From Phycisphaerales bacterium (GTDB lineage: Bacteria > Planctomycetota > Phycisphaerae > Phycisphaerales > UBA1924), in NCBI GenBank assembly GCA_965212225.1, contig OZ243106.1:2891374-2955373 (forward strand): a stretch of DNA of 64,000 nucleotides, written 5' to 3'. The translations under genes were made by a program, and so were the position numbers. Position 1 is the stretch's first letter, and the number at the start of each line of letters is the position of its first letter. Below the pieces are notes generated by a model, which saw only the letters and a program-made list of their open reading frames with translations, was not told the DNA's origin and did not search any database. Shown here piece after piece: positions 3,727-61,505 of the stretch.

Positions 3727-5154
3727 TCAGCTGCGGGTGCCGCGGATACGCGGGCCCTTGCCCTGGTCGTTGCCGCCGAGGAAGCCGGCGTAGTTGCGCA
3801 TCAGCAGGTTGGCTTCGATGCGCTGGATCAGGTCGAGGCCGACGGACACGACGATCAGCAGGCCGGTGCCGCCGAGGAACGACGCGACCATGAAGTCGAC
3901 GTTGAAACTCGTCTGCACGACCATCGGAATGACCGCGATGATCGACAGGAAGCCGGCACCGACATAGGTGATGCGCTCCATGACCGTCTCGAGGTACTCG
4001 GCGGTGCGTGGGCCGGGACGGAGGCCCGGGATGAACGAGCCGGAGTCTCGGAGCTGCTTGGACATGTCTTCCGGGTTGAACTGCACGGTCGTCCAGAAGT
4101 AGCTGAAGAAGTACACCATGCCGATGTAGAGCAGGATGTAGGGGTACTGGCCCATGACGAAGTTGTCGCCGAGGAACTGCATCAGCCCGCTCCACCAGCC
4201 GCCCTCGCCCTGTGACTGCTGAGCAAGGGCTCCGAAGACAACCGAGGGGAAGATCATGATGGAACTGGCGAAGATGATGGGCATGACGCCGCCGTGGTTC
4301 ACGCGCAGCGGGAGGTAGGAGCGCTGGCCGCCGAAGACGCGACGCCCACGGGTGTGCTTGGCCTGCTGGACCGGGATGCGGCGCTGGGCGACGGTGATGA
4401 GCACCGCACCCGCGACCACGCCGACGAAGGCGCCGAGCAGCAGGATGAGCTGCATCCAGGTGAGTTGGGGATCGGTCTGCGGGATACCGAGCAGCGAGCC
4501 GATGAAGCTGATCTGACCGACCGGCGAGTTCTGGACAAGCCAGAGGAACGCCCCGGGCATCTGGGCGAGGATGCCGGCGGTGATGATGAGCGAGACGCCG
4601 TTGCCGATGCCGTACTTGTCGATCTGCTCACCGAGCCACATCAGGAACACGGTGCCGGCGGTCATGGCGGTGATGGCCATCACCCACCACATGGGGTTGC
4701 CGGCGTAGGCCTCGTAGACGATGCCGCTGCTGGTGATGAAGGTGAGCCAGCCGAACGCCTGAACGATGCAGAGGCCGATCGTGGCGTAACGGGTCCACTC
4801 CTGAATCTTCTGGCGACCGGAGGGGCCCTCTTCCTGCAGCTTCTTGATGGCGGGGACCGCCGACTGGAGGAGCTGGAAGATAATCGCGGCCGAGATGTAG
4901 GGCATGATGCCCATGCCGAAGATCGTGGATTGGCCGAGCGTGCCGCCGGAGAAGATCGAGACAAACTGGGCGACGCGACCGAAGGCCGAGCCGTCGGAGG
5001 TTTCCTGCTCGAAGAAGTCTTTCAGGATCTGCTGGTCGATACCGGGGACCGGCACCCAATAGCCGATTCGGTAGACCACCAGCATGCCGATGGTGAACAG
5101 GAGCTTCTTGCGAAGATCCGGGATCTTGAAGCAGTTCATCAAGGCGTTCAGCAT
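3727..5154 (-). CDS. secY: preprotein translocase subunit SecY
   Basis: 475-aa polytopic protein with GMGIMPYISAAIIFQLL and RQKIQEWTRYATI motifs; synteny after rplO. Confidence 0.97.
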   Translation of the reverse strand: MLNALMNCFKIPDLRKKLLFTIGMLVVYRIGYWVPVPGIDQQILKDFFEQETSDGSAFGRVAQFVSIFSGGTLGQSTIFGMGIMPYISAAIIFQLLQSAVPAIKKLQEEGPSGRQKIQEWTRYATIGLCIVQAFGWLTFITSSGIVYEAYAGNPMWWVMAITAMTAGTVFLMWLGEQIDKYGIGNGVSLIITAGILAQMPGAFLWLVQNSPVGQISFIGSLLGIPQTDPQLTWMQLILLLGAFVGVVAGAVLITVAQRRIPVQQAKHTRGRRVFGGQRSYLPLRVNHGGVMPIIFASSIMIFPSVVFGALAQQSQGEGGWWSGLMQFLGDNFVMGQYPYILLYIGMVYFFSYFWTTVQFNPEDMSKQLRDSGSFIPGLRPGPRTAEYLETVMERITYVGAGFLSIIAVIPMVVQTSFNVDFMVASFLGGTGLLIVVSVGLDLIQRIEANLLMRNYAGFLGGNDQGKGPRIRGTRS

Positions 5155-37719: not shown

Positions 37720-37853
37720 CTCTACGCCCACCGGGCCAATGCACCACCCAAAGGTAGGTATTTGCTTTCCGTTTGGAATGGTCCAGTTTGCGCGGGGGAA
37801 CCCGCGCTGCCCATGCTACGATCACCGAGTTGTCCGATCGCGAAACCATAAAG

Positions 37854-40800: not shown

Positions 40801-42974
40801 AGATCCGCGAAGCTCGCTCACGCCTGGAGTCCACCCTCGCCGCCGCAGAGATCGGCACGTGGGAATTCGACATCGTCAAGAATGCCGTGGGGGCCGATCG
40901 AAACCTGGCATTCCTGTTCGGCATGACCACCGAGGAAGCCGACCAGGCACCGGTGGAGCGTTATCTTGAGGCGATTCACGCAGAAGATCGCCCGCGGGTT
41001 GAGCGGTCCATCGCCCGCGCGATCGAATCCGAAGACACCTACGAAGCCGAGTACCGCGTCGTTCCGAGTCCCGGCCAACCCGTTCGCTGGGTGGTCGCGC
41101 GCGGTCGCGTCGAGCGCGATCCCGACGGGACCCCCGTCCGCCTCCCGGGCGTAGTCGTAGACATCACGGAACGAAAGCGTTTCGAAGAAGCGCTTCGCGA
41201 GAGCGAAGATCGGTTCAAGGTGATGGCGAACGCCGCCCCGGCAATGCTCTGGGTCACCGCTCCGGACGGTTCGGCGACCTTCCTGTCACGCGGCTGGTAC
41301 GAGTACACCGGCCAGACCGAACTCGAGGTCGATGGTTTCGGCTGGCTCGAAGGAGTACATCCCGACGATCGGGAACATTCCCATCGCATCTTCGAGGAAG
41401 CGAACGCGAATCAGGACCCGTTCTCGCTCGACTATCGGCTCCGCCGAGCCGACGGCCAGTACCGGTGGTGTATCAGCGCGGGCAAACCGAGTTTCGATGA
41501 AAACGGACGGTTCCTGGGGTACGTCGGATCCGTGATCGATGTCCACGAACGCAAGCAGGCCGAGACCGCCTTGCGCGCCGCTCACGATCAGGTCAAGCAA
41601 GCGCGTGACTACGCCGAAGCCACCCTCCGGACCTCGCCCGTGCCGCTGCTCGTCCTCGAGAGCGATCTTCGGGTGAGTTCTGCCAACGAGGCCTTCTACG
41701 AGATGTTCGACATGGGGCCGGACGACACCGAGGGCCGCTTCCTCCACGAACTCGGCAACCGCGAATGGGACATCCCCGAACTCCGCGAGCTGCTCGGAAA
41801 AGTCCTTGAGCAATCCGACGGCTTCCAGGGCTTCGAGGTCGAGCCGCACTTTGAAACCATCGGAACCCGCTCCATGCTCCTCAACGCGCGTCTTATGGAC
41901 AACGAGGAGGGAGAACCGGACCGCGTCGTGCTGGTGATGGAAGACATCACCCAGCGACGAGAGCACGAGGAGCGCATGGCGACCGTGATGGCCGAACTGA
42001 ACCATCGCGTCAAGAACACTCTGGCCGTCGTCGACGCGATCGCCAGCCAAACGCTGCGCCACGCAAACAGTCTGAACTCGTTCAAGAAAAGCTTCGGGGA
42101 GCGGCTCCGTGCCATCGCGAACGTCCACAGCCTCCTGACCGGCACCGACTGGACGGGATGCTCTCTCGAAGAAATCGTGCGGAGCGAGATCGATCCGCGC
42201 CGCGCCTCGCCGAATCAAGCATCGATCCGCGGCCCCGCGCTCACGCTCTCGCCGAAGCAGTGCCTGGCGCTCCACATGGTCGTCCACGAACTGGCCACGA
42301 ACGCCATGAAGTACGGTGCGCTCAAGGGCGAGTCCGGACACATTGATATCGCGTGGGAAACGCAAAGCCGCGACGGGGTCCGCTGGCTCAAGTTCGAGTG
42401 GCGGGAGCGATGCGAAGGGAATCTGACCACAAGCGGCGAACCCGGCTACGGCAGCAGCCTGATCGAGCAGACCGTGAACTACGAACTGCGAGGTGAGTTG
42501 GAGAAAGAGCTCGCTCCGAGCGGATTGACATGCACCATCAGCTTTCCGCTCTCCGCGCATGAGCTCCCCGTTCCCGAGAGTCCGTCCGGAGCAACACTCC
42601 AGACGGATTCCACCGAATCGAAACCGCGCGTGCTGGTCGTCGAAGACAACGGCACCATCGCGCAGGTGCTGGTCGACGAACTGGAAGAAATGGGCGTTGA
42701 CGTGGTCGGCCCGGCCAACACACTCGAGAAGGCGATGCAACTGGTTGAAGGGAAGCCCCCCGCCGCCGCGCTCCTCGACGTCGACCTCGACGGAACGAAG
42801 GTATATCCCCTCGCCCGCCTGCTGCGAGAACGCCAGGTGCGTTTCCTTCTACTCACGGGCTACGACAAGGCGGACCTCCCCGAAGACCTTCGGGAGTCGA
42901 CGATCCTCGGCAAACCAATCTGTCCCGACGAACTCAAGGCCATGCTCGGCCAAATCGGGCTGCACTCGCGGTGA
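37854..42974 (+). CDS. giant hybrid sensor kinase: truncated receiver-like N-terminus, multiple PAS/PAC modules, GAF, HWE/HisKA_2-type kinase core, C-terminal receiver
   Basis: Repeated PAS/PAC signatures (e.g. IISKTLDGVIESWNEGAERIFGYTAEEAIG) and a GAF segment (GSILLLDPDG..CGTAAYRGERVIVEDI). H-box ELNHRVKNTLAVVDAIASQT and HELATNAMKYGAL are typical of HWE kinases. Receiver RVLVVEDNG...LLDVDLDG...KP. ATG 37854 chosen; ORF opens at 37773. Confidence 0.9.
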   Translation: MTGNGSRARILVENDDAATADAIARVLRESGFAVESVAERSEPANGTNAVIVECDQPEAMRRAGKTRQESEDRWAFVRRATGVGYWYCDLPFDALHWDEHVKAHFHLPADASVTIDTFYDRLHPDDRQRTRDAIAHAIEHRTIYDIEYRTVDPDTGAIKWIRAIGRADYAPDGTPKRFDGVTIDVSNGKRASEQAAEAADRLTLIADAMPALIAYVDADARYRFNNRGYEQWFGHDRDDIHGRLVSEVVGDDAYAVIEPHVRKALDGERVSFEAEIPFSDDQRRTVHCDYVPDERADGSVAGFYALITDITLRRQHDRASARLAAIVQSSSDAIISKTLDGVIESWNEGAERIFGYTAEEAIGRPVTMLIPEDRLGEETQIIGAIRTGQRIEHYETIRRRKDGSLVNISLTVSPVLDSNGRIIGASKIARDITERTRFENALRESESRFKAMANTAPAMLWVTDADGTATFLSRGWHEFTGRPQHGGLDADWFEAVHPQDRREFQRSLLDANRRREAFSIDYRLRRHDGMYRWCIAHGRPRFDNDERYLGFVGSVIDAHERKKAELERSAQSRILEMIASEEPLAEILNELVRSAEQQIPGTTGSILLLDPDGKRLRHGAAPGLPDAYNRAIDGVEIGPAVGSCGTAAYRGERVIVEDIQSDPLWADYRKTAEAHGLRACWSQPILSADGRTIGTSAIYFNEPKRPIDDELTTLQATAQFAGLAIDRHRTLQALRDSEARFRAFTTATSDAVYRMNADWTEMQQLQGQQFIPDTLEPSRSWLQRYVYADDRPGVLEAIDRAIRTREMFEMEHRVIRLDGSIGWTQSRAVPIFDDQGTIQEWFGAASDVTARKQAEESLEQQRRLYEGVLTTTPDLAYIFDLDHRFIYANEGLLRMWGKTWDEAIGRNCLELGYEPWHAELHDKEIERVVATKTPIRGEVPFTGTAGRRIYDYIFTPILNDDGEVIAVAGTTRDVTDMKLAEEEIREARSRLESTLAAAEIGTWEFDIVKNAVGADRNLAFLFGMTTEEADQAPVERYLEAIHAEDRPRVERSIARAIESEDTYEAEYRVVPSPGQPVRWVVARGRVERDPDGTPVRLPGVVVDITERKRFEEALRESEDRFKVMANAAPAMLWVTAPDGSATFLSRGWYEYTGQTELEVDGFGWLEGVHPDDREHSHRIFEEANANQDPFSLDYRLRRADGQYRWCISAGKPSFDENGRFLGYVGSVIDVHERKQAETALRAAHDQVKQARDYAEATLRTSPVPLLVLESDLRVSSANEAFYEMFDMGPDDTEGRFLHELGNREWDIPELRELLGKVLEQSDGFQGFEVEPHFETIGTRSMLLNARLMDNEEGEPDRVVLVMEDITQRREHEERMATVMAELNHRVKNTLAVVDAIASQTLRHANSLNSFKKSFGERLRAIANVHSLLTGTDWTGCSLEEIVRSEIDPRRASPNQASIRGPALTLSPKQCLALHMVVHELATNAMKYGALKGESGHIDIAWETQSRDGVRWLKFEWRERCEGNLTTSGEPGYGSSLIEQTVNYELRGELEKELAPSGLTCTISFPLSAHELPVPESPSGATLQTDSTESKPRVLVVEDNGTIAQVLVDELEEMGVDVVGPANTLEKAMQLVEGKPPAAALLDVDLDGTKVYPLARLLRERQVRFLLLTGYDKADLPEDLRESTILGKPICPDELKAMLGQIGLHSR
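39147..39548 (+). repeat. internal PAS-module duplication, copy 1 (within kinase gene)
   Basis: Residues ITERTRFENALRESESRFKAMANTAPAMLWVT... align without gaps to copy 2, with 84 of 134 residues identical by hand count. Confidence 0.85.
41160..41564 (+). repeat. internal PAS-module duplication, copy 2 (within kinase gene)
   Basis: ITERKRFEEALRESEDRFKVMANAAPAMLWVT...VGSVIDVHERKQAE; see copy 1. Confidence 0.85.
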
Positions 42975-52303: not shown

Positions 52304-53410
52304 TCAACGCCTGCGTCGCGCAAACGCCAGACCGCCGAGCCCGAGCAGCGCCGTCGCGCCCGGAGCCGGGACCAGCGTCATCCGGTACGCCCGGATCTCG
52401 CCGTCGATCAGCGCCGTGCCGACGATCGTGCCGTCCTCGGCGATACCGAGCGCGGACGAGCTCGTGTTCATCGAGATGTCCCAGCCGCTGTCGGCGGGGA
52501 TCAGGTCCTGCAGGCGATACGTCTGATCACCGTCGTACAGGAACGGTACCGCGAACTGCCCGCTCCCGATGCCCACGACCCAGCCGTCCGAGTTCACGCC
52601 ACGCGCGCTCGCCATCGACGTCCCCGCCGGCAACGGGATCTCCTGGCTCGCGCCGCGACCAGCGCTCCAGATGAACGGCGTCGAGCCGGACTGGTTGAAC
52701 GAACTCGAGCCGACCACATGCCCGGCTTCGCTGATGTCAAACGCGATCGTGCCGTTGTCGCCCGGCAGGGCCGGCACCTCGGTCAGCGTGCCGTTGTTGA
52801 TGTTGTAGAGCAGGCCAACGTTGCGCGAGAGCATGTTCGGATCGGTGCCGTTTCCGACCGCGAAGCCCGCGTTGTTCACCCGAAAGGCCGTCGTCATCGA
52901 GGCGCCGCCCGCGGTCGTCGCCGTGATGCGGTTCACCGCTCCGTTGTTCCAGTACGCCGCGACCTCCAGACTGCCCCCGCCGAGCGAGCCGACCACGAAG
53001 CCGCCGTCGTTCACATCGTTGGCGCGTCCAACGCCCAGTCCGTCCATCGAGAGCTGCGTCAGCGAACCGTTCGTCCACTGCAGCGGGATCGCCCCCGAGC
53101 CGAAGAAGGTGTCCGCGCCGACACCGACCACCACGCCGCTGTCGTTCGCACCGTTCGCCACGCCGTACGGCTTGCCCGCGGCGTTCGGAAGCGCCGTCAG
53201 TGCCGATCCGGGGTTCGCGAAGAAAGGCGTGTTGGTCGTGCCCGCCCCCCGCCCGAACGCCACCCCGCCCGGCGAAACCCCGAAGCCCTGCGACGCAAAG
53301 TCCCCGCTCTGCACCAGCCCCAGATCTTCGATCTGGTACACCGGAGCCGCCACCGCCGCCGAAGCACCCAGCCCCGCGGCGAACAGCACTGCAAACCCAT
53401 TCCTGATCAT
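52304..53410 (-). CDS. HAF-repeat extracellular protein with PEP-CTERM sorting signal
   Basis: Signal peptide MIRNGFAVLFAAGLGASAAVA. At least six repeats of the type A.GVN..G.VVG (ANGANDSGVVVG, ANDVNDGGFVVG, AFRVNNAGFAVG, AFDISEAGHVVG, ARGVNSDGWVVG, ALGIAEDGTIVG). C-terminus LVPAPGATALLGLGGLAFARRRR. Confidence 0.85.
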   Translation of the reverse strand: MIRNGFAVLFAAGLGASAAVAAPVYQIEDLGLVQSGDFASQGFGVSPGGVAFGRGAGTTNTPFFANPGSALTALPNAAGKPYGVANGANDSGVVVGVGADTFFGSGAIPLQWTNGSLTQLSMDGLGVGRANDVNDGGFVVGSLGGGSLEVAAYWNNGAVNRITATTAGGASMTTAFRVNNAGFAVGNGTDPNMLSRNVGLLYNINNGTLTEVPALPGDNGTIAFDISEAGHVVGSSSFNQSGSTPFIWSAGRGASQEIPLPAGTSMASARGVNSDGWVVGIGSGQFAVPFLYDGDQTYRLQDLIPADSGWDISMNTSSSALGIAEDGTIVGTALIDGEIRAYRMTLVPAPGATALLGLGGLAFARRRR

Positions 53411-53580: not shown

Positions 53581-53604
53581 AAAAAGGCAGGCGATCTGCC
53601 TGCC
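53581..53604 (-). terminator. intrinsic terminator after the TSCPD-domain gene
   Basis: Minus strand has GGCAGG-loop-CCTGCC followed by TTTTT, 32 nt after the stop. Confidence 0.7.
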
Positions 53605-53635
53605 CGCACCGAGCCATCCAGTCCCCCGCGGTCGC

Positions 53636-54022
53636 CTACCGCCCTACAAACTCCAGTTCCAAGAACCGCGCGATGTAGTCCACCAGGCTCATCGCCTCGG
53701 GGATCTGCGGGTTCGAGGTCGCGCCCATCGGCTCGAAGCGCATCCCCTTGAAACGAACCACCGCGTCCTCGACGCTTAGCCCGTACTGCAGCGCCAGACT
53801 CATCGCGCGGCAGTACGCCTGGCACATGCCGCTGATCGTCGAGCCCTCCTTGCTCATCTTCAGGAACAGCTCGCCCGGCTTGCCGTCCTCGTGCAGGCCG
53901 ATCGTCAGGTAGCCCTCGTGCTTGCCGATCGAGAACTTGTGCGTGAGCGAGCGGCGGGTCTGGGGCAGCGAGCGGCGGGTGGTCTCGGCGGCGGCGGTGG
54001 ACATCGACGAAGGTCTCCTCAA
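53636..54022 (-). CDS. stand-alone TSCPD-domain protein (class II ribonucleotide reductase C-terminal-like), cysteine-less variant
   Basis: LTHKFSIGKHEGYLTIGLHEDGKPGELFLKMSKEGSTISGM...MSLALQYGLSVEDAVVRFKGMRF matches the TSCPD-domain pattern from memory. Confidence 0.65.
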   Translation of the reverse strand: MRRPSSMSTAAAETTRRSLPQTRRSLTHKFSIGKHEGYLTIGLHEDGKPGELFLKMSKEGSTISGMCQAYCRAMSLALQYGLSVEDAVVRFKGMRFEPMGATSNPQIPEAMSLVDYIARFLELEFVGR

Positions 54023-54130: not shown

Positions 54131-55015
54131 TCAGCCCGCGCCCAGCCACATCCACCCCGCCTGCGCCAGCGCCACCACCCCGATCATCGAGGCCATGGCG
54201 ATCCGGCGCGTGCGTCCCGCTCCGGGGTCCAGCCCCAGCACCGCCAGCAGCACGCCGATGATCAGCAGCATCACGTCCGGAAGCAACGCGCCGAAACCGG
54301 GCACGTAGGGTCGGCCCGACAGTTCGAGCGCAATCGCCTGCGACCGCTGGCCGGACCCCCACTCCGGCTGAGCCATCGCCCCACCGACGATCCGCGTGAT
54401 GTTCGCGCAGCCGATGGCGATCCCGGTCGCGATGACCGCGCCGGTCGCCACCGTCGCGACATCGCGCTGGCGCAGCGCCCAGACGATCAGGTGCGCCGAG
54501 ACCAGCCCGAGCGCGACGAGCGCCGAGGCGCCGTCCAACACCGCCCAGCCGATGCACACGCCCGATACAACGCCGAGCAGACCGACCAAGGCGTCCGAGC
54601 CAGTGCGCGGGGCATCACCCGATCGGCGAGCGCGGTCCTCTTCGCTGTTGACCACCCACCACACCGCGAGCGCGAGCAGAAGGAGCAGTTGCCCGTTGAG
54701 CGCGTCGACGCGACCGACCAGACCGGCTCCGCCGAGGATAGCGACCAGCCCGGCCAGCACGCCGACGCCGAGGCGCCCGCCGGTGACCGCACTCTTCGCG
54801 AGCGCGACCAGCAGCGCCAGCACCATCGGCGCGACGATCAACTCCGAAGCGCCGATCGGTACGGCACCTTTACCAATGCTCAGGGCCGCCGCGCACGAGG
54901 CGGAAACGCCGAGCACGACAATCGGCGCGCCGCTGCTGCGAACCGATGCACCAGCACGCTGGGACATCGCGGCGAAAACGAGCGTGGTCAGGATGGCCAG
55001 AGAAAGCGAAAGCAC
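54131..55015 (-). CDS. hypothetical polytopic membrane protein (about 8 TM), last gene of the SecA-like operon
   Basis: Alternating roughly 20-aa hydrophobic segments and short charged loops. GTG start 44 nt after the SecA-like stop, same strand. The opposite-strand ORF is Arg-rich junk. Confidence 0.6.
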   Translation of the reverse strand: MLSLSLAILTTLVFAAMSQRAGASVRSSGAPIVVLGVSASCAAALSIGKGAVPIGASELIVAPMVLALLVALAKSAVTGGRLGVGVLAGLVAILGGAGLVGRVDALNGQLLLLLALAVWWVVNSEEDRARRSGDAPRTGSDALVGLLGVVSGVCIGWAVLDGASALVALGLVSAHLIVWALRQRDVATVATGAVIATGIAIGCANITRIVGGAMAQPEWGSGQRSQAIALELSGRPYVPGFGALLPDVMLLIIGVLLAVLGLDPGAGRTRRIAMASMIGVVALAQAGWMWLGAG

Positions 55016-55059
55016 GAACCCACGAGTGTATCCGGCTGCTGGACCACGCGGATCCTTCC

Positions 55060-57030
55060 TTACTCACGCCCCGCGAAGCCCAGCGCGTCATCCAGCCAGT
55101 CATCGCCCTTGAGTACCTCGCGCCGGCGCGAATAGGCAATCGCCTCAGCCCGGCGCTGGGCCGATCGCTGCACCAGCGTGACCAACCGCTGGCCCGCCCC
55201 GCTGCGAGCCAGTTTCGCCAGCACCGTACGCAGGCGCGGGAAGAAGCGGCGGGCCAGTTCGTCGTCCAGACTCGAAAAGATCACCACTTCACCCGGATCG
55301 CCCTGACGCCCGCATCGCCCGAAAAGCTGGCGATCGATCCGCGCCGAAAGTGCTCGCCCGGTGGCGATGACGCACAGCCCGCCGCGCTCGACACTCTCGG
55401 GCGCGAGCCGGATGTCCGTGCCGCGACCGGCCATGTTGGTCGCGACGGTGACGCGCCCCGGCTCGCCCGCCCGCGCAACGATCGACGCTTCCTCCTCGTG
55501 GCGCACCGCGTTGAGCACTTGGTGCTCGACGCCCCGCTCCCGAAGCAGCACGCTCAGTCGCTCGCTCTCAGCAACGCTCGACGAACCGATCAGGACCGGC
55601 TGGCCGGCCGAAGCGCGGCGGGCGGCTTCGGCGGCGGTCGCCTCATCGCGCTCGATTGCGCCGGTAAACGCGCGGTCCTTCACCACGCGCCGGCGCGAGG
55701 GCCGGTGCGTCGGCATCGGGACCACCGGCGAGCGGTAGATCCGCACGAACTCGCGGCGCGATTCGAGCGCGGTGCCGGACATGCCCGCAAGGTACGGGTA
55801 CATGCGGAAGAACCGCTGGAAACTGATCCGCGCAACCGTCCGCTTGGCGCTGCGCACCTCCAGCCGCTCCTTGGCCTCGACCGCCTGGTGCATGCCGTCG
55901 CGCCATGTCCGATCGGGCATCGTCCGTCCGGTACTCTCGTCGACGATGACCACCGCGCCGTCGCGGACGATGTAGTGCTGGTCGCGCGTGTACAGGTGCT
56001 CGGCGCTCAGGGCTTGCCGGATCATCGCGTCCCGGTCACGCGGCAGCCGCGCTCCCAGCGCGCCACCCGAGGCAAGGCGATCGATCTCGCCGTTCGCGCG
56101 GGCAAGGAGCCGGATCTCTCGGTGCGCGCGATCGACGCTGAAGTGTTCCCCCTCCGTCAGTTCGAGCGCGATCTGACGGGCCTGCTCGTAACTCTCTGCC
56201 CCGGAGGCCGAGCCGTCATCGGCGGAGATCAGCAGCGGCGTGACGGCGTCGTCGATGAGCACGAAGTCGGCCTCATCCACGATCGCGCAGTGCAGGCCCC
56301 GCTGCAGCGGCTGGGCGACCGCGCGGGGACCGGCGATGAGCACGCGCAGAGCATGCGAACCGACGGCGCGGACCTCCCCGAGCGCAAGGCGGTCGCGCAG
56401 GAAGTCCGCGGCGAGTTCGCGGCTGGTCGAGTAGGTGACATCGGCCGAGTAGGCACGCCGGCGATCATCGGTTCCTGATTCGCCGGTGATGGCTTCGACG
56501 CCGAACCCCAGTCGCTCCAGACACGGCCGGGTCCAGTCAGCGTCGCGCGAGGCGAGGTAGTCGTTCGCCGTCACGACGTGGCAGCCTTTCCGCGCCGCGC
56601 CGAGCAGCGGAGACGCCAGCAGCGCGCTGAGCGTCTTGCCCTCACCCGTGGCCATCTCGACCACGCAGCCGTCGACCATCGCCAGCGCCGCCGCGACCTG
56701 CTCGCGGTGCGCCAGCAGGCCGGTTGTGCGCCGGGCGACTTCGGTCACGAGCGCGAGCGCGGCGACCCGCTCTTCTACCGGTGCGTCGGCGATGCGAGCG
56801 GTCAGTGTCGACCGGGCGCGCGTGTCGAGGTCGGCGTCGCTCAGATGTGCCATCGCCTCGTGCTCGCGGAGCACGCGCTCGCCGAGCGCGAGGTAGCGAC
56901 GGGTCCGCGGCAAGCGGCTGCGCACGATCGCGCCCGCTTCACGCGCGAGAAAATCCAGTCCCTCCGGCTCGCGAACCGGCTCGATGGGCGATCCCAATGC
57001 CCGCCAGGTGGCATCCATCGCGCGGGTCAT
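55060..57030 (-). CDS. SecA-like DEAD-motor ATPase lacking the canonical SecA C-terminal third
   Basis: EMATGEGKTL (Walker A), AIVDEADFVLIDDAVTPLLIS, VATNMAGRGTDI and LFGRCGRQGDPG are near-canonical SecA NBD1/NBD2 motifs. Start ATG at 57030 overlaps the upstream stop (ATGA at 57027..57030). Upstream 158 codons of ORF 55060..57504 are rejected. The protein ends about 90 aa after the GRQGDPG motif. Confidence 0.85.
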   Translation of the reverse strand: MTRAMDATWRALGSPIEPVREPEGLDFLAREAGAIVRSRLPRTRRYLALGERVLREHEAMAHLSDADLDTRARSTLTARIADAPVEERVAALALVTEVARRTTGLLAHREQVAAALAMVDGCVVEMATGEGKTLSALLASPLLGAARKGCHVVTANDYLASRDADWTRPCLERLGFGVEAITGESGTDDRRRAYSADVTYSTSRELAADFLRDRLALGEVRAVGSHALRVLIAGPRAVAQPLQRGLHCAIVDEADFVLIDDAVTPLLISADDGSASGAESYEQARQIALELTEGEHFSVDRAHREIRLLARANGEIDRLASGGALGARLPRDRDAMIRQALSAEHLYTRDQHYIVRDGAVVIVDESTGRTMPDRTWRDGMHQAVEAKERLEVRSAKRTVARISFQRFFRMYPYLAGMSGTALESRREFVRIYRSPVVPMPTHRPSRRRVVKDRAFTGAIERDEATAAEAARRASAGQPVLIGSSSVAESERLSVLLRERGVEHQVLNAVRHEEEASIVARAGEPGRVTVATNMAGRGTDIRLAPESVERGGLCVIATGRALSARIDRQLFGRCGRQGDPGEVVIFSSLDDELARRFFPRLRTVLAKLARSGAGQRLVTLVQRSAQRRAEAIAYSRRREVLKGDDWLDDALGFAGRE

Positions 57031-59210
57031 CGCGGCGCACCGAAGCGTTGCTGGAACTCCTGGCGCACCGCTCGGAGCAGCTGAGCACCCAGCGGCTTGG
57101 GATCTCGCACGAGTCTCACCTGCACACGCTGACCGACGAACAGGCCTTCCGACGACTCCGGGTCGAGGATGATCTCGAAGATCGGTTCCTTGGAGGCCGT
57201 GCCGCGCTCGTCGGTCGGGTCGGTTTCCAGCGAGCCGCCGGCGTTCAGCCCGAGTGACGAGGACGGCAGGTCGCGCCGTCCTGCTTCGCTGATGGAGACA
57301 ACACTGCCTGCCAGCTGCTGAGCCGGTCGCATGACGGGGCGGATTTCGACGGGTCGGTCCAGCGCCTCGACGGTCAGCGATGCGGCGGACGCTTGGGTGA
57401 CCACCGCGCGGATGCGCAGGTCGGCGGGGTCCACGATCTGACCGAGTTTCTCGCCGCGGGTGACGTACGCGCCGAGTGCGCGGTCGCCCACCGGTGAGAC
57501 CCATATCCCGTCGAAGGGCGCGACGGTCGTGAGTCGTTCGAGTTCGTCGGTCGTCTGCTTGTACTGACGTTCGAGGACGCGTTCACGCTGAGCCATGATC
57601 GAGGCGGTGGCGGGGTCGTCGAGACTCGCAAGCCGCCCGGTGCGCGTCGCCTCAAGGCGGGCTGCGACCTGGATAAGCACGGCTCGGGTCTCGTCGTTGG
57701 ACTGCTCCAGCAGCGGCTGGCCGGCTTGTACCCGAGCCGCGTCGGCTTCGATCCAGTGCACGAAGCCATCGGTACCGGCAAAGACATCGGCGGCGCGGCG
57801 GGCATCGACCACGCCGTCGATCCGTACCCGGTCTGGCAGCGGGATGGCTAGGACGACCAACGCCGCCGCAGCGAACGCACCGCCGGTGAGAACTGCAGCG
57901 CGCCGGCGGGTCCGGGCGATCTCGCCGGCGTTCGCGAGGTACTTAACGAGCTGGGCGAAGGGCGCGGAGAACAGGATGACCGCCGCGACCAGCGCCAGCA
58001 CCAGACCGAGCGCGAAGAGCTGACCGGCGACGAAGCGGATGATGACCAGCAGCACAACGACGCGGTAGATCGCCGAGGACACGCCGTAGAACGCGAGCCA
58101 GTTGCGGGCCCGGGTGGAGCGCGCCGGGTCCTTCGGTTCACGGGCCTTGAAGGCGTATTTCTTGACGTAGTAGTAGATCGCCTCGCGGCTGCGCTGGTAC
58201 AGGTTCGGCGCTTCGAAAAGATCGGAGAGGATGTAGTAGCCGTCGTAGCGCAGCAGCGGGTTGGCGTTGAACAAGATCGTCGTTACGCCCGCCAACAGGA
58301 CGGCGTTGTAGGCGAGCGTGTTGACCTGCGAGCCCACGCCGGTCGAGGCCCAGACCAGGGCGGCGACCGAGGCGATCGCCACTTCGAAGTACATGCCCGC
58401 GCCGTTGACGATGATCCGGCGCCAGCGGCTGCGCAGCGTCCAAGACGAGGAAGCATCGACGTACGGGATCGGGAGCAGCACGATCAGCAGCACGCCCAGC
58501 TCGTGGCACTCGCCGGCGGCGCCGGTCGATCGCTCGCGCTTGCCGAGCACCTTGCAAGCGAAGCCGTGGCCGAGTTCGTGGGCGAGTTTGATCACGATGA
58601 AGGTGCCGATGAGCCAACCGAGGTTGGCCGGCGCGAGCACCTGCGAGGACGCCTCAACGAACTCGCCGGCTCGGCGTCCGACGGCGAGCAGCGCGGTGAT
58701 CAGCAGCGCGAGCCAGGCCATCGCGCCCCAGCGCGTGAACAGCGGCGACGCGAGCCACGCCCAGCGATCGAGAAAACCGTCGGGGTCGACGAGCGGGAGC
58801 TGCACGAACAGGAAGCTGCGCAGGCGTCCCTTGATCTCACGCGCGGTGCGGCGCCTGCCGCGACGGAGCAGGGCCTCGGCGTCGGCGGGCGCATCGGCGC
58901 TGAGCAGGTTGTTCGAGTAAAGCTGACCGAGGACCTGCACGGCTTCGCCGCGGGTCGGGGCGTGGTCGCCGATGACGCGCTCGCACTCGGCCAGAGCGTC
59001 TTCGACCGTGCGCGAGCCGTCGAGCAGGCCGACGAAGCGGTAGGCGCTCTCGGAGATGCGGTAGTACTGGCTGGACGCGGCATCTTCTATGACGAACCAC
59101 AGCCGGCCCCGGAAGCGCTGGCGGGTGACATCAACGCCGACCCGAAGGCGCGGTTTGAGCGGGGCGAGGCGGTACCATGAGTCGTGCGATGTGCGGCGCT
59201 CGGTCGTCAT
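57027..59210 (-). CDS. M50-family (site-2-protease-like) zinc metalloprotease fused to a C-terminal HlyD-type membrane-fusion domain
   Basis: HELGHGFACK (HExxH) and FNANPLLRYDGYY (NxxPxxxxDG) in a polytopic core. C-terminal 300 aa has an MFP pattern (VFAGTDGFVHWIEADAARVQAGQPLL..coiled coil..VAPFDGIWVSPV). ATG 59210 is 2 nt after the upstream TAG; a GTG at 59219 would overlap it by 7 nt. Confidence 0.82.
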   Translation of the reverse strand: MTTERRTSHDSWYRLAPLKPRLRVGVDVTRQRFRGRLWFVIEDAASSQYYRISESAYRFVGLLDGSRTVEDALAECERVIGDHAPTRGEAVQVLGQLYSNNLLSADAPADAEALLRRGRRRTAREIKGRLRSFLFVQLPLVDPDGFLDRWAWLASPLFTRWGAMAWLALLITALLAVGRRAGEFVEASSQVLAPANLGWLIGTFIVIKLAHELGHGFACKVLGKRERSTGAAGECHELGVLLIVLLPIPYVDASSSWTLRSRWRRIIVNGAGMYFEVAIASVAALVWASTGVGSQVNTLAYNAVLLAGVTTILFNANPLLRYDGYYILSDLFEAPNLYQRSREAIYYYVKKYAFKAREPKDPARSTRARNWLAFYGVSSAIYRVVVLLVIIRFVAGQLFALGLVLALVAAVILFSAPFAQLVKYLANAGEIARTRRRAAVLTGGAFAAAALVVLAIPLPDRVRIDGVVDARRAADVFAGTDGFVHWIEADAARVQAGQPLLEQSNDETRAVLIQVAARLEATRTGRLASLDDPATASIMAQRERVLERQYKQTTDELERLTTVAPFDGIWVSPVGDRALGAYVTRGEKLGQIVDPADLRIRAVVTQASAASLTVEALDRPVEIRPVMRPAQQLAGSVVSISEAGRRDLPSSSLGLNAGGSLETDPTDERGTASKEPIFEIILDPESSEGLFVGQRVQVRLVRDPKPLGAQLLRAVRQEFQQRFGAPR

Positions 59211-59212
59211 CG

Positions 59213-61132
59213 CTACCACCAGAGTCGCATGCGCAGCCAGTCGGCGAGATCGCGGAACAGCACGCCGCCGAGGTTCGTTCGACCGGTGACGATGCGGGCC
59301 TCGCCTCCCATGCCCGGGCGCAGCCAGTCGGGCGGGTCGATCAGACGCACGCGCACGCGGAACACGTTGCGACCATCGACGACCTCGGCGACCGGCGTGA
59401 TCCGGTCGACTTCGAAGGCGATGCGCCGGTCGGGGTACGACGCGGTAGCGAGCCGTCCGGTCTGGCCGACTTCGACATCGGCGATGCGCGATTCGGGCAC
59501 GCCGACCTCGGCGTAAAGGCGCGACAGGTCGGCGATCTCGAACAGCAGTTGCCCGGTCTGGACCGGCGCGCCGACGAGGCGGTCGATGTCGCCGGAGATG
59601 ACGGTGCCGGAGATCGGTGCGACGAGGCGGGCGCGCTCGAGTTGCTGTTCCAGCAGTGCAACGGTGGCCTCGGTCTCCTCGGCGCGTTTCAGGGCGATGG
59701 CGGCTTCGGCGAGTTTGCCTTCCGAGCGGGCCTTGTTGGCCTCGGTCCGCGCGGACGCGGCTGCGGCTTCGTTGGCGGCGAGTTGGAGAGCGATTTGCTC
59801 GGTGGAGAGCGTCGCGAGGACGGATTCACCGGCCGTGACGCGCTGGTCCACTCGGACCTCAACCGAATCGATGAAGCCGTCGAACGGGGCGGGCACGACC
59901 TGACGCTGGAGCGGCGCGATGCTGAACGCGCCTTTCGCTCGCTCGGGGGCGGGGACGACAATCAGGGCGAGCACGGTCAGGGCGACTGCCGCGGCCGCGA
60001 GCTTGATCCAGGTGTGGGTCGGTCCGAGCACGCCGGCGAGCGTGCGGCGCGCGCTGTCGGCGATCTTCGCGCCGATCCAGCGGTCGCGCTCGCGGGCGTC
60101 GAGCAGGCGGGGCGTCACAAGTTCGCAGAGCACGCGCAGGCCGGCGACCTCGTGATCCTGGAACGGTCGCTCGGCATCGCGCTCGACCAGCAGGACCCCC
60201 ACCACGCGTCCCGCGCTGCGCAGGGGCAGGAGCGTCGCGGCCATGGGGCCCGAGTGCTCGGCGTGGGCGCGGAGGGCGCGGGTGATGACCGGCTGCTCGG
60301 GATCGAGGGGCCAGCGCAACTCCGTGTCCTGATCGAAGCACTCTTCCATCGCGCTGACAATGTCCTGCACGAGACGCATGCGCGTGGAAACTTTCTCGGT
60401 GCCGGAGAGGGCCGCGAGTTTGATGTAGGAACCCCGCGAGGCATCGGCACCGTCGGCCGTCTGGTCATCGCCCTCGGTGGCGACCTGCGGGGCGATGTCG
60501 ATCATGCCCAGCGCGACGCGGTCGAGGTTCAGGCGCGAGGTGAGGTCGTTGACGATGCGATACGCGATCGAGCGGAAACGGTGGAGCGGCGAGACCGCGG
60601 TCGCGATGTCGAGCGCAGCGGTGAGTCGCTCGGTGCGTGCCTGCTCGGCGCGCTCGGCGCGGCGCGACTGGCGCAGCGCGGGGACGAGCGTGAGCAGCTC
60701 GAACCTGTCGCGCAGGGCGCGGGCCTGGGCCGGCTCCACATAGGGGAGCAGTGCGGCGAGGTACAGGTTTCCGGGCGCTTCGGGGAGCGGCGCGGCGACG
60801 ACGGTCGCGCGCATGGGTCCCTGGGCGGTGTCGAGGTTGAGGTCCCGCTGGAACCACTCGTGGTCGGATGTGTGGAGTTCGATGGCGGCTTCGGCGGCGC
60901 GGTCGGCCCACGCCGCGGCGGTGGCGGCTTCGGGCCAGATGGCGATCACATCCGCGCCGCGGGCATCGGGGTTGACGCGGACAACGGCGACGGCGGATGC
61001 GCCGCAGGTGCGTGCGGCGAGCGAGGCGAGTTGATTGAAGTATGCGTTGGGAGCGCCCTCGAAGTCGACCAGTCGCTGCACATCTTCGGGCAGTTGGTCG
61101 GCGGTCTGGGATGGGGCGTGGTACTGGCTCAT
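59213..61132 (-). CDS. GAF-domain-containing HlyD-family membrane-fusion (periplasmic adaptor) protein
   Basis: About 370 cytoplasmic residues with two GAF-like segments (e.g. ATLLPLRSAGRVVGVLLVERD), TM WIKLAAAAVALTVLALIVV, then MFP lipoyl/coiled-coil/barrel (VPAPFDGFIDSVEVRVDQRVTAGESVL...LVAPISGTVISGD). Confidence 0.8.
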   Translation of the reverse strand: MSQYHAPSQTADQLPEDVQRLVDFEGAPNAYFNQLASLAARTCGASAVAVVRVNPDARGADVIAIWPEAATAAAWADRAAEAAIELHTSDHEWFQRDLNLDTAQGPMRATVVAAPLPEAPGNLYLAALLPYVEPAQARALRDRFELLTLVPALRQSRRAERAEQARTERLTAALDIATAVSPLHRFRSIAYRIVNDLTSRLNLDRVALGMIDIAPQVATEGDDQTADGADASRGSYIKLAALSGTEKVSTRMRLVQDIVSAMEECFDQDTELRWPLDPEQPVITRALRAHAEHSGPMAATLLPLRSAGRVVGVLLVERDAERPFQDHEVAGLRVLCELVTPRLLDARERDRWIGAKIADSARRTLAGVLGPTHTWIKLAAAAVALTVLALIVVPAPERAKGAFSIAPLQRQVVPAPFDGFIDSVEVRVDQRVTAGESVLATLSTEQIALQLAANEAAAASARTEANKARSEGKLAEAAIALKRAEETEATVALLEQQLERARLVAPISGTVISGDIDRLVGAPVQTGQLLFEIADLSRLYAEVGVPESRIADVEVGQTGRLATASYPDRRIAFEVDRITPVAEVVDGRNVFRVRVRLIDPPDWLRPGMGGEARIVTGRTNLGGVLFRDLADWLRMRLWW

Positions 61133-61256
61133 GGGATCACGGGGCGGACTGCCCGGCGTGTACCAGTATCGACTACTCGGGGCTGATTATCCGAGCGCGA
61201 GAGCCGGAATGCCCGGTTTGCGGGCAAAAAGACCGGTCTGAGAGAGGATGGGGCGA

Positions 61257-61505
61257 TCAGGCGGCCTGCAGGCCGACGCTGTCGCGGAGGATTCGAATCG
61301 CTTCGTCGTGGTGGCGCTCGACCTGCTCGGCGGTCATGTCGACGGCACCGGCGATCTCGGCATCGGTCATCTGCTCGGCGTAGCGGAGCAGGATGATGAG
61401 TCGTTGCACTCCGCTAAGCGACTTGAGCATCGCGTTTCGGAGCAGTTGCGTCGGTTCGGCACCGGTTGAGGCGTGCTCGACGGATGGCGGTGAGTGTGGG
61501 GCCAT
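61257..61505 (-). CDS. small sigma-70 region-4-only HTH protein
   Basis: 82 aa. LSGVQRLIILLRYAEQMTDAEIAGAVDMTAEQVERHHDEAIRILRDSV matches the region 4.2 pattern of ECF/sigma-70 factors, but regions 2 and 3 are absent. Confidence 0.6.
   Translation of the reverse strand: MAPHSPPSVEHASTGAEPTQLLRNAMLKSLSGVQRLIILLRYAEQMTDAEIAGAVDMTAEQVERHHDEAIRILRDSVGLQAA

What the first reader, a model, noticed from the sequence alone, without database searches (positions are those of the whole stretch)
54131..61505. Coupled operon: sigma-region-4 HTH, GAF-adaptor, M50-adaptor fusion, truncated SecA-like motor, polytopic membrane protein - candidate uncharacterised export/processing machine
Five consecutive minus-strand genes are packed as one unit. 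They are an 82-aa sigma-70 region-4-only protein, a GAF-GAF-TM-HlyD-type adaptor (124-nt gap), an M50 protease with its own C-terminal HlyD-type domain, a SecA-like ATPase, and a 294-aa polytopic membrane protein (44-nt gap). The M50 start lies 2 nt after the upstream TAG (or a GTG overlaps it by 7 nt), and the SecA-like ATG overlaps the M50 TGA as ATGA at 57027..57030. All catalytic signatures read intact: HELGH and NPLLRYDG in M50; Walker A, DEAD-like box, TNMAGRGTDI and GRCGRQGDPG in the motor. Characterised systems pair membrane-fusion proteins with ABC, RND or MFS energisers. Here the only NTPase is a SecA-type motor that has lost the C-terminal module that engages SecY. No ABC transporter, outer-membrane factor or obvious substrate gene is present in the operon. 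My hypothesis is that the SecA-like motor delivers an unfolded substrate to an M50 protease/adaptor assembly spanning the envelope. The cytoplasmic GAF domains would gate it and the region-4 protein would act as a regulator. I do not know of a characterised function for this combination.
Basis: partly seen in the sequence, partly recalled or inferred. Interest (0 to 1): 0.88.

Follow-up and report, generated by a model that had tools for sequence, protein, structure and literature searches.

The report
SecA-driven secretion module for giant proteins
The five genes are real, but only three form the conserved core of a secretion-like module first described by computer analysis in 2015; related genomes suggest it exports giant proteins that carry an N-terminal "LEPR-XLL" tag, which nobody has tested.

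Summary
Five minus-strand genes lie at 54131-61505 with the stated gaps, overlaps and catalytic motifs. Only one GAF domain could be detected.

Three genes form a conserved core: GAF-adaptor, M50 protease-adaptor, and a short SecA without wing/scaffold. A short SecA follows the M50 gene in 54 of 54 related loci. A GAF-adaptor precedes it in 62 of 65.

The sigma region-4 protein and the 294-aa membrane protein occur only in this lineage. Both are still under purifying selection.

The module is not new. Kamneva, Poudel and Ward (PLoS One 2015, PMC4452313) described it and proposed the same type-I-secretion-like idea. I found no experimental study.

Three observations are absent from that paper:
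- The M50 subunit starts with a PqqD-like peptide-recognition domain.
- Full versions add a 285-aa adaptor, a TolC-like protein and DUF3467.
- In 18 related loci the neighbouring gene encodes a large or giant protein (full-length examples 7,489-12,918 aa; many others cut by contig ends) with an N-terminal LEPR-XLL motif.

My best reading is a SecA-powered exporter and leader peptidase for LEPR-XLL giant proteins. The window holds a reduced copy, with no cargo, TolC or third adaptor gene in 64 kb.

The parts
61257..61505 (-). Small stand-alone sigma-70 region-4 helix-turn-helix protein (82 aa; relatives are called as 57-83 aa). It is a lineage-specific addition and a putative regulator.
   Evidence: Pfam Sigma70_r4 at 31.3 bits, above the 24.1 cutoff. 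Present upstream of the module only in close relatives L083-L086. dN/dS 0.14-0.30.
59213..61132 (-). GAF-adaptor (639 aa): an N-terminal (by inference cytoplasmic) region with one detectable GAF domain (aa 188-339), one hydrophobic stretch that looks like a membrane helix, and a periplasmic membrane-fusion (HlyD-type) domain (aa ~411-608). Core component.
   Evidence: Pfam GAF 3.1e-10, HlyD_D23 9.3e-23, HlyD_3 1e-19. Found upstream of the M50 gene in 62 of 65 related loci. No second GAF is detectable.
57027..59210 (-). M50 protease-adaptor fusion (727 aa from the ATG): a PqqD-like peptide-recognition domain, a polytopic M50-type metalloprotease and a C-terminal membrane-fusion domain. Core component.
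   Evidence: The best NCBIfam hit is the daptide intramembrane metalloprotease NF041824, at 148.8 bits against a cutoff of 300. The AlphaFold2 model has mean pLDDT 84.1.
58914..59135 (-). PqqD-like / RiPP-recognition-element (RRE)-like domain of the M50 subunit (aa ~26-99).
   Evidence: PqqD scores 20 bits in this protein, below the 23.4 cutoff. It matches 43 of 45 family members at E <= 0.01. The AF2 model shows three strands plus three helices here. NCBI names some homologues 'PqqD family peptide modification chaperone'.
58566..58580 (-). HELGH zinc-binding motif (H211, E212, H215).
   Evidence: Invariant in the 45-sequence alignment A2.
58239..58268 (-). NANPLLRYDG motif (N315-G324); D323 would be the third zinc ligand by analogy with site-2 proteases (from memory).
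   Evidence: N315, N317, P318, L319 and D323 are invariant in A2.
57108..57830 (-). Membrane-fusion (adaptor) domain of the M50 subunit (aa ~461-701), with a short alpha-hairpin at aa 506-558.
   Evidence: Foldseek against the PDB: MexA, MacA and AcrA at E about 1e-11. HlyD_3 1.4e-6.
55060..57030 (-). Short SecA-like ATPase (656 aa): NBD1, preprotein cross-linking domain and NBD2. It ends inside the scaffold helix, so the wing domain, two-helix finger and C-terminal tail are absent. Core component, translationally coupled to M50 through ATGA.
   Evidence: SecA_DEAD 2.1e-79, SecA_PP_bind 3e-27, P-loop_SecA 1.8e-47, and SecA_SW absent in 0 of 20 members. Aligns to residues 62-603 of 780-840-aa SecA structures. 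Below every NCBIfam SecA and SecA2 cutoff.
55063..55125 (-). Conserved C-terminal tail of the short SecA (aa 636-656, RREVLKGDDWLDDALGFAGRE); a candidate docking motif.
   Evidence: R636, V639, L640, D643, W645, L650, F652 and A653 are invariant in A1. The same tail is seen in other phyla.
54131..55015 (-). 294-aa polytopic membrane protein of unknown family; a lineage-restricted addition.
   Evidence: No Pfam or NCBIfam hit. Only 6 representatives among 1.84 billion proteins. Found in 4 related loci only. dN/dS 0.15-0.66.
53636..54022 (-). TSCPD-domain small protein, possibly the last gene of the transcript.
   Evidence: Pfam TSCPD 7.6e-15. Follows the membrane gene in L083, L085 and L086, but is separated from it in L084.
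53585..53605 (-). Terminator-like hairpin followed by a T-run; the first one downstream of the gene block.
   Evidence: This is a consensus match only.

Best explanation
The core triad is one copy of a widespread envelope-spanning export machine related to type I secretion. A SecA-derived ATPase replaces the ABC transporter.

The proposed mechanism has five steps:
1. The cargo is a very large, non-Sec protein. Its N-terminus carries a basic stretch followed by the LEPR-XLL motif ([F/L]-E-x-[L/M]-E-x-R-x-L-L-[S/T]-A).
2. The cytoplasmic PqqD-like recognition domain at the N-terminus of the M50 subunit binds this leader.
3. The short SecA keeps its nucleotide-binding domains and polypeptide clamp but lacks the parts that engage SecY. 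It docks on the M50 and GAF-adaptor subunits and threads the unfolded chain.
4. The intramembrane M50 site (HELGH / NPLLRYDG) removes the leader.
5. The adaptor domains of the M50 subunit and the GAF-adaptor form the periplasmic duct to a TolC-like channel. Complete systems add a 285-aa adaptor.

The GAF domain may gate assembly or activity in response to a small ligand.

What is shown: domain content, motif conservation, strict synteny, and adjacency of LEPR-XLL giant genes in related genomes. What is inferred: leader recognition by the PqqD-like domain, leader cleavage, the route through the membrane, and GAF gating.

The window holds a reduced version. It has no cargo gene, TolC or third adaptor within 64 kb, and it carries two lineage-specific genes. 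Its cargo and outer parts must be encoded elsewhere, or its role has shifted.
For: - Synteny: a short SecA follows the M50-adaptor gene in 54 of 54 loci, and a GAF-adaptor precedes it in 62 of 65. The triad occurs in Planctomycetota, Verrucomicrobiota and Alpha-, Beta-, Gamma- and Deltaproteobacteria.
- Accessory genes: a 285-aa adaptor in 48 loci, a TolC-like protein in 24, and DUF3467 in at least 18.
- Conserved sites: the ATPase and protease motifs are invariant. PqqD matches 43 of 45 members. The AF2 model has pLDDT 84 with an RRE-like fold, a membrane helical core and an adaptor domain.
- SecA truncation: SecA_SW is absent in 0 of 20 members.
- Cargo, metagenomic and genomic loci: 12 metagenomic loci plus the cultured planctomycete ZRK34 (7,489 aa) carry a large neighbouring ORF with the LEPR-XLL motif. 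Ten of the 12 are the very next gene. There are no genuine motifs in 1.14 Mb of control loci. Four of six tested N-termini pass NCBIfam NF012209.
- Cargo, plasmids: five of five annotated alphaproteobacterial plasmid loci have a giant gene directly upstream on the same strand. Pontibrevibacter (10,603 aa) and Pseudosulfitobacter (12,918 aa) are named LEPR-XLL by NCBI's PGAP annotation pipeline. Methylosinus (8,847 aa), Mesorhizobium (10,518 aa) and Alisedimentitalea (over 8,148 aa) carry the motif by my translation.
- RTX giants: four loci have RTX-repeat giants directly upstream, including a tight operon in Achromobacter piechaudii.
- A 2015 paper reached the same type-I-like idea independently.
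- The window genes are under purifying selection.
Against: - No experiment exists for any member.
- The window has no LEPR-XLL ORF, RTX ORF, TolC-like gene, 285-aa adaptor or DUF3467. The cargo link rests entirely on other genomes.
- Most related loci show no adjacent giant gene; many are too short to tell.
- The control loci differ in taxonomy from the module loci, so the enrichment is not a clean statistic.
- M50 proteases are not known to form protein-conducting channels, and the path of the chain across the inner membrane is unexplained.
- The PqqD and Peptidase_M50 hits of the window protein are below Pfam gathering scores.
- No complex modelling could be run.
- In M. extorquens AM1 only the GAF gene was expressed in exponential phase.
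Confidence: 0.55

Rival explanations
1. The module exports and matures small ribosomal peptides (bacteriocin or RiPP type). It would be a functional analogue of peptidase-containing ABC transporters. The PqqD-like domain would bind a short precursor's leader, M50 would cut it, and the adaptors and TolC would release the peptide.
For: The closest curated relatives of the protease part are RiPP leader peptidases: daptide NF041824 at 148.8 bits and YydH/LiaK NF058609 at 26.7 bits. The PqqD-like domain is conserved in the family.
Against: Clustering of flanking ORFs across about 90 loci found no recurrent small precursor gene and no modification enzymes. The recurrent neighbours are large or giant proteins. 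A SecA-type polypeptide motor is hard to justify for short peptides. Both NCBIfam scores are far below their cutoffs.
Confidence: 0.1
2. The short SecA is an accessory Sec ATPase (SecA2-like) that still feeds SecYEG. The M50 protein would clear or process signal peptides, and the adaptor domains would only tether the complex.
For: Strong homology to SecA and SecA2 over NBD1, the preprotein cross-linking domain and NBD2. A canonical SecY gene lies in the same window at 3727-5154. The 2015 tree places this clade next to actinobacterial SecA2.
Against: The wing domain, most of the scaffold, the two-helix finger and the C-terminal tail are missing in all 20 members checked. The gene is translationally coupled to M50 and never seen without it in this clade. 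The neighbouring giant proteins lack Sec-type hydrophobic signal peptides. TolC and extra adaptors are co-encoded.
Confidence: 0.07
3. The module is a signalling device based on regulated intramembrane proteolysis. The GAF domain would sense a ligand, M50 would cleave a membrane-anchored regulator, and SecA-like unfolding would assist. Output would run through sigma-type regulators such as the region-4 protein in the window.
For: M50 proteases classically cleave anti-sigma factors (established knowledge). A region-4 protein sits upstream here. ECF-type sigma genes follow the short SecA in L167 and L169.
Against: Sigma-type genes are not conserved with the module. Three adaptor-type proteins and TolC have no role in such a pathway. 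The PDZ domains typical of RseP-type proteases were not detected.
Confidence: 0.07
4. In this particular lineage the triad is a stripped-down remnant that has been repurposed. It may work with the lineage-specific 294-aa membrane protein and may no longer export LEPR-XLL proteins.
For: There is no 285-aa adaptor, TolC, DUF3467 or cargo gene within 64 kb, nor in relatives L083-L086. The 294-aa protein and the region-4 protein are unique to this clade.
Against: All catalytic motifs are intact and dN/dS is 0.05-0.27 for the three core genes. The 2015 study notes that partner genes missing from a locus are often elsewhere in the genome. Only 64 kb of this genome is visible.
Confidence: 0.15

Closest known systems
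Secondary SecA_DEAD / type-I-secretion-related module of Kamneva, Poudel & Ward (PLoS One 2015, PMC4452313)
   Same: It has the same three core genes: a GAF+HlyD protein, a Peptidase_M50+HlyD protein and a SecA_DEAD protein lacking wing/scaffold. The phyla are the same and so is the proposed role (SecA as ATPase, M50 as membrane part).
   Different: The window copy lacks the fourth gene of that module, the ~285-aa HlyD/biotin-lipoyl protein, and has two extra lineage-specific genes. The paper does not mention the PqqD-like domain, DUF3467, RTX or any substrate.
Classical type I secretion systems (HlyB-HlyD-TolC) and peptidase-containing ABC transporters
   Same: Both use membrane-fusion adaptors and, in related loci, a TolC-like exit duct. 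Both handle large, often RTX-repeat, non-Sec cargo encoded next to the machine. A leader-processing protease is fused to the inner-membrane component, as in C39-ABC exporters (by analogy, from general knowledge).
   Different: There is no ABC transporter. The only NTPase is SecA-derived. The protease is an intramembrane M50 metalloprotease, not a C39 cysteine protease. The candidate signal is N-terminal (LEPR-XLL), not a C-terminal secretion signal. Two or three different adaptor proteins are present, one carrying a cytoplasmic GAF domain.
SecA and accessory SecA2 ATPases
   Same: NBD1, the preprotein cross-linking domain and NBD2 are present with all ATPase motifs. The protein is about 38-42% identical to canonical SecA over residues ~60-600.
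   Different: It ends within the scaffold helix, with no wing domain, two-helix finger or C-terminal linker (SecA_SW in 0 of 20 members). It scores below all NCBIfam SecA and SecA2 cutoffs. It is always coupled to an M50-adaptor gene instead of SecY2 or Asp partners.
Site-2 proteases (RseP/SpoIVFB, family M50) and RRE-bearing RiPP metalloproteases (daptide protease NF041824; YydH/LiaK NF058609)
   Same: The HExxH and NxxPxxxxDG motifs sit in a polytopic membrane core. An N-terminal PqqD-like domain is present, as in the daptide protease profile, which aligns to aa 34-418.
   Different: It is fused to a periplasmic membrane-fusion domain. No PDZ domain was detected. It is far below family cutoffs (148.8 against 300; 21.9 against 27.2). 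Its neighbours are a SecA-like ATPase and giant proteins, not RiPP enzymes or anti-sigma factors.

Membership tests
Kamneva-2015 secondary SecA_DEAD module | SecA_DEAD protein with the wing/scaffold domain lost | tested here: met
   SecA_DEAD, PP_bind and P-loop_SecA are present. SecA_SW is absent in the window protein and in 0 of 20 homologues.
Kamneva-2015 secondary SecA_DEAD module | Adjacent protein with weak Peptidase_M50 similarity plus HlyD domains | tested here: met
   The gene overlaps the SecA start (ATGA).
Kamneva-2015 secondary SecA_DEAD module | Adjacent GAF + HlyD/biotin-lipoyl protein | tested here: met
   2 nt upstream of the M50 start.
Kamneva-2015 secondary SecA_DEAD module | Separate ~285-aa HlyD/biotin-lipoyl secretion protein in the locus | tested here: not met
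   An HMM built from 50 such proteins finds only the two larger adaptor genes in the 64-kb window. The paper notes that such partners can be encoded elsewhere.
Classical type I secretion system | ABC transporter as inner-membrane energiser | tested here: not met
   No ABC domain in any of the five proteins, nor in the core genes of related loci.
Classical type I secretion system | Membrane-fusion protein | tested here: met
   Two HlyD-type domains. Foldseek matches to MexA, MacA and AcrA.
Classical type I secretion system | TolC-family outer-membrane factor | tested here: not met
   An HMM from 23 module-linked TolC-like proteins finds nothing in the window. One is present in 24 related loci and in Methylosinus pMSC49a.
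SecA / SecA2 (NCBIfam equivalogs) | Full-length score above the curated cutoff, including scaffold/wing | tested here: not met
   523 bits against cutoff 814 (PRK12904). SecA2 models score 375-452 bits against cutoffs of 725-1100.
Peptidase family M50 (site-2 protease) | HExxH and NxxPxxxxDG motifs in a membrane core | tested here: met
   H211, E212, H215, N315, P318 and D323 are invariant in 45 sequences.
Peptidase family M50 (site-2 protease) | Pfam PF02163 score above the gathering threshold | tested here: inconclusive
   21.9 bits against 27.2 for the window protein. 35 of 45 family members match at E <= 0.01.
Daptide / YydH-type RiPP leader metalloproteases | NCBIfam equivalog cutoff | tested here: not met
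   148.8 against 300, and 26.7 against 225. No RiPP genes are nearby.
RRE / PqqD-like leader-binding domains | PqqD profile match and a winged-helix fold of three strands plus three helices | tested here: inconclusive
   The window protein scores 20 bits, below the 23.4 cutoff. 43 of 45 homologues match. AF2 secondary structure at aa 26-99 fits. Peptide binding was not tested.
LEPR-XLL (NF012209) cargo association | A LEPR-XLL protein encoded with the module | tested here: not met
   No motif-bearing ORF in the window or in L083-L086. The feature is met in 18 related loci.

The most novel reading that the evidence does not exclude
The triad, with its accessory adaptor, TolC and DUF3467, would be the long-missing dedicated secretion system for LEPR-XLL giant proteins of thousands to tens of thousands of residues. 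It would be a distinct secretion-system type. An N-terminal leader is read by a PqqD-like domain and cut by an intramembrane M50 protease. A SecA-derived motor, independent of SecYEG, threads the chain into an adaptor/TolC duct.
Probability: 0.4. Interest if true: 0.85.

Novelty: new member of a known kind. Interest (0 to 1): 0.58.

Why it matters
How bacteria export giant surface or effector proteins of 7,000 to more than 36,000 residues is an open question. [quoted passage not shown]

If the SecA-like/M50/adaptor module is their exporter and LEPR-XLL is its address tag, three things follow:
- A module that has had no experimental study since 2015 gains a cargo and a testable mechanism.
- SecA-type motors would be shown to work outside the SecYEG pathway.
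- Thousands of giant genes in Planctomycetota, Verrucomicrobiota and Proteobacteria would gain a predicted secretion route.

The hypothesis is testable in cultured hosts listed in the 2015 supplement or found here. These include Ruegeria pomeroyi, Methylobacterium extorquens, Bordetella avium, Pseudosulfitobacter and Mesorhizobium ciceri.

For this window alone the yield is modest. It holds a reduced copy of a module that has already been described.

Tried and rejected
- The genome-contig scan with the short-SecA alignment was swamped by canonical SecA, because the patterns fell on shared motifs. Only about 11 of the 80 loci were informative.
- DUF3467 as a SecB-like chaperone: the AF2 model had pLDDT 48 and was unusable. 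There were no PDB relatives and no literature. The idea is dropped as unsupported.
- The PDB sequence search for the M50-adaptor protein returned nothing. Foldseek returned only adaptor-domain matches, so the protease core and the PqqD-like domain were not independently matched.
- A second GAF domain was not detectable.
- A search for a 285-aa adaptor, TolC or DUF3467 in the window with custom HMMs found none. No RTX or LEPR-XLL ORFs were found in the window.
- Ten literature searches found no functional study of the module and nothing later than the 2015 paper. The supplements of the 2026 preprint held no data on Cag_1676.
- Short length alone does not define the family. L015 and L041 carry short SecA-like genes without an M50 neighbour. 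L035 has a different gene order.
- The sigma-70 promoter scan found nothing.

Full report

Yes. One search lists five minus-strand ORFs at exactly the reported coordinates. The junction sequences show the reported spacing:
- a 124-nt gap after the 82-aa gene;
- TAG-CG-ATG between the GAF-adaptor and M50 genes;
- an ATGA overlap at 57027-57030 between M50 and the SecA-like gene;
- a 44-nt gap before the 294-aa gene.

Gene calls in close relatives use the ATG start for M50, giving 726-727 aa.

Pfam and NCBIfam confirm the domains:
- Gene 1: Sigma70_r4.
- Gene 2: one GAF domain plus HlyD_D23 and HlyD_3.
- Gene 3: HlyD_3, weak Peptidase_M50 and weak PqqD.
- Gene 4: SecA_DEAD, SecA_PP_bind and P-loop_SecA, without SecA_SW.
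- Gene 5: no hit.

All quoted motifs are present and sit on invariant alignment columns. A second GAF domain could not be detected.

All five genes evolve under purifying selection relative to three relatives. dN/dS is 0.05-0.39, and the 294-aa gene reaches 0.66.

The only terminator-like hairpin downstream lies after the next gene, a TSCPD protein, at 53585-53605.

**2. What is conserved and what is not?**

- Homologues of the short SecA are numerous. They are mostly 640-690 aa and come mainly from Planctomycetota and Phycisphaerae.
- Neighbourhoods of two distant homologues, Mucisphaera and a deltaproteobacterium, show the same order: GAF-adaptor, M50-adaptor, short SecA.
- In a genome scan, every locus whose SecA ends with the family's characteristic tail also has the M50-adaptor gene upstream. 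These include Opitutaceae, Burkholderiales, Gammaproteobacteria and Achromobacter piechaudii.
- Starting from the M50-adaptor protein in metagenomes, 54 of 54 loci with enough downstream sequence carry the short SecA next. 62 of 65 with enough upstream sequence carry the GAF-adaptor.
- Unbiased clustering of flanking ORFs found three further recurrent partners. These are a ~285-aa signal-peptide adaptor (48 loci), a TolC-like outer-membrane factor (24 loci) and a ~110-130-aa DUF3467 protein (at least 18 loci).
- The region-4 protein and the 294-aa membrane protein occur only in the window's close relatives. The membrane protein has just six representatives among 1.84 billion proteins.
- Custom HMMs find no 285-aa adaptor, TolC or DUF3467 anywhere in the window.

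The window therefore holds a reduced triad plus two lineage-specific genes.

**3. Prior art**

Kamneva, Poudel and Ward (PLoS One 2015, PMC4452313) described 'secondary SecA_DEAD domain proteins' that have lost the wing/scaffold domain. These are encoded next to Peptidase_M50/HlyD, GAF/HlyD and HlyD/biotin-lipoyl proteins, sometimes with an OEP (TolC-family outer-membrane) protein.

They proposed that the SecA_DEAD protein supplies ATPase activity and the M50 protein the membrane passage of a type-I-like system. They stated that the biological role is completely unknown.

Their S2 table lists cultured hosts: Ruegeria pomeroyi, Methylobacterium, Bordetella avium, Magnetococcus, Rhodopirellula, Phycisphaera mikurensis and others.

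Further searches found no functional follow-up. No solved structure exists for the M50-adaptor protein.

**4. New observations about the machine**

- The M50 subunit begins with a PqqD-like domain. It is weak in the window protein (20 bits) but matches 43 of 45 family members. It is precomputed for most homologues, and NCBI names some 'PqqD family peptide modification chaperone'.
- An AlphaFold2 model (pLDDT 84.1) shows three strands plus three helices at aa 26-99, then a helical membrane core carrying HELGH and NPLLRYDG. A C-terminal adaptor domain matches MexA, MacA and AcrA.
- The closest curated protease family is the daptide RiPP leader metalloprotease, far below its cutoff.
- The short SecA aligns to residues 62-603 of full-length SecA structures. 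It ends in a conserved tail, DDWLD..LGFAGRE.
- From memory of SecA structures, this truncation removes the wing domain and the two-helix finger that enters SecY. I could not check this with a tool beyond the absent SecA_SW domain.
- The 2015 paper mentions none of PqqD, DUF3467, RTX or a substrate.

**5. Candidate cargo**

Many related loci have a very large ORF beside the module.

*RTX giants.* Four loci carry RTX-repeat giants directly upstream on the same strand. One is a tight operon in Achromobacter piechaudii.

*LEPR-XLL motif in genomic and metagenomic loci.*
- Six other large neighbours share an N-terminal motif, [F/L]-E-x-[L/M]-E-x-R-x-L-L-[S/T]-A. Four of the six pass NCBIfam NF012209, the 'LEPR-XLL domain'.
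- A motif scan found 12 such ORFs in 87 module loci. Ten of the 12 are the very next gene, and eight are on the same strand.
- The same scan found none with the extended motif in 67 canonical-SecA control loci covering 1.14 Mb. The control is taxonomically different, so adjacency is the stronger argument.
- The cultured planctomycete ZRK34 has a 7,489-aa LEPR-XLL protein divergently adjacent to the module.

*Annotated plasmids.* Five of five loci with visible upstream sequence place a giant gene immediately before the module:

| Host | Giant protein | LEPR-XLL evidence |
|---|---|---|
| Pontibrevibacter | 10,603 aa | named LEPR-XLL by PGAP; its stop overlaps the DUF3467 start by 4 nt |
| Pseudosulfitobacter | 12,918 aa | named LEPR-XLL by PGAP; a SapC gene lies inside the operon |
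| Methylosinus C49 | 8,847 aa | N-terminus FDTLEPRVLLNAD; followed by the full set including TolC |
| Mesorhizobium ciceri | 10,518 aa | N-terminus FEALEPRLLLSAD |
| Alisedimentitalea | over 8,148 aa ('calcium-binding protein') | LEPRLLL lies in frame just upstream of a probably mis-set start |

These N-termini have a basic stretch but no Sec-type hydrophobic core.

[quoted passage not shown] They are flanked by sapC and tolC. A horizontally acquired secA (Cag_1676) is co-expressed with them. I could not verify that Cag_1676 belongs to this family.

**6. Mechanism**

Shown:
- domain architecture;
- invariant ATPase and protease sites;
- strict operonic coupling;
- co-encoded adaptors and TolC;
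- adjacency to LEPR-XLL giants.

Inferred:
- The leader is bound by the PqqD-like domain.
- The chain is clamped and pushed by the SecA-like motor, which docks on M50 or the GAF-adaptor through its conserved tail.
- The leader is removed by the M50 site.
- The chain leaves through a duct of two or three adaptor types to TolC.
- The GAF domain gates the system.
- DUF3467 and SapC may be cargo-handling accessories. The SecB-like idea for DUF3467 found no support.

Weak points are the unexplained route across the inner membrane and the complete lack of experiments.

**7. The window's copy**

It has intact, constrained core genes. No cargo, TolC, third adaptor or DUF3467 lies within 64 kb or in its relatives' flanks. 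Either the partners are encoded elsewhere, which the 2015 study reports as common, or this lineage uses the triad differently together with its private membrane protein. The region-4 protein is a plausible local regulator. ECF sigma genes also follow the module in two other loci, but this is not a conserved feature.

**8. Verdict**

- The instance is a new, reduced member of a described but functionally untested module.
- The added value is the PqqD-like domain, the fuller parts list, and a specific, testable cargo and signal hypothesis (LEPR-XLL giants).

Noticed in passing
L087-L166, L169, L170, L172, L176, L179 (not in the window): DUF3467 proteins (~110-130 aa) recur immediately upstream of the GAF-adaptor gene. 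In Pontibrevibacter the DUF3467 start overlaps the stop of the giant LEPR-XLL gene by 4 nt. Their function is unknown; the structure prediction failed.
   Followed up: partly
L173 758-1555; L177 22236-23057: SapC family genes accompany the module and giant gene in Alisedimentitalea (divergent upstream) and Pseudosulfitobacter (inside the operon). A 2026 preprint reports sapC next to the LEPRxLL giants of Chlorobium chlorochromatii.
   Followed up: partly
L173 ~426-500 (NZ_CP123586.1, upstream of QEZ52_RS00715): The annotated start of the 8,148-aa 'calcium-binding protein' is probably too far downstream. The LEPRLLL motif lies in frame just before the annotated ATG.
   Followed up: yes
Homologues P0011, P0015, P0022, P0115; L172 16222-18138; L177 23050-25074: NCBI annotation names several short SecA proteins 'prepilin peptidase' or 'DEAD/DEAH box helicase'. 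These look like annotation errors that hide the family.
   Followed up: no
L035 1618-8987; L015; L041: Pirellulaceae and Planctomycetaceae carry other short SecA-like genes with a different tail. L035 has a rearranged order (SecA, a 689-aa adaptor-like protein, then a 26%-identical M50-adaptor). L015 and L041 show no M50 neighbour.
   Followed up: partly
L167 12570-14597; L169 12152-13588: ECF-type sigma factor genes lie directly downstream of the short SecA in two planctomycete loci. In L167 they are followed by a small protein and a PDZ protein. This echoes the region-4 protein in the window.
   Followed up: no
window 3727-5154 (-): A canonical SecY gene (Pfam SecY 2e-104) lies in the same window, so the housekeeping Sec channel is present in this organism.
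   Followed up: no
window 52304-53410 (-): A 368-aa protein with a DUF3466 match and a weak C-terminal PEP-CTERM motif (16.4 bits, below the 20.7 cutoff) lies just downstream of the TSCPD gene. It is conserved there in relatives L083, L085 and L086.
   Followed up: no
window 53636-54022 (-) and 53585-53605: A stand-alone TSCPD-domain protein under very strong constraint (dN/dS 0.05-0.08) follows the operon. It is followed by the only terminator-like hairpin in the region.
   Followed up: partly
window 37773-42974 (+): A 1,733-aa multi-PAS/GAF HWE-type histidine kinase with a receiver domain.
   Followed up: no
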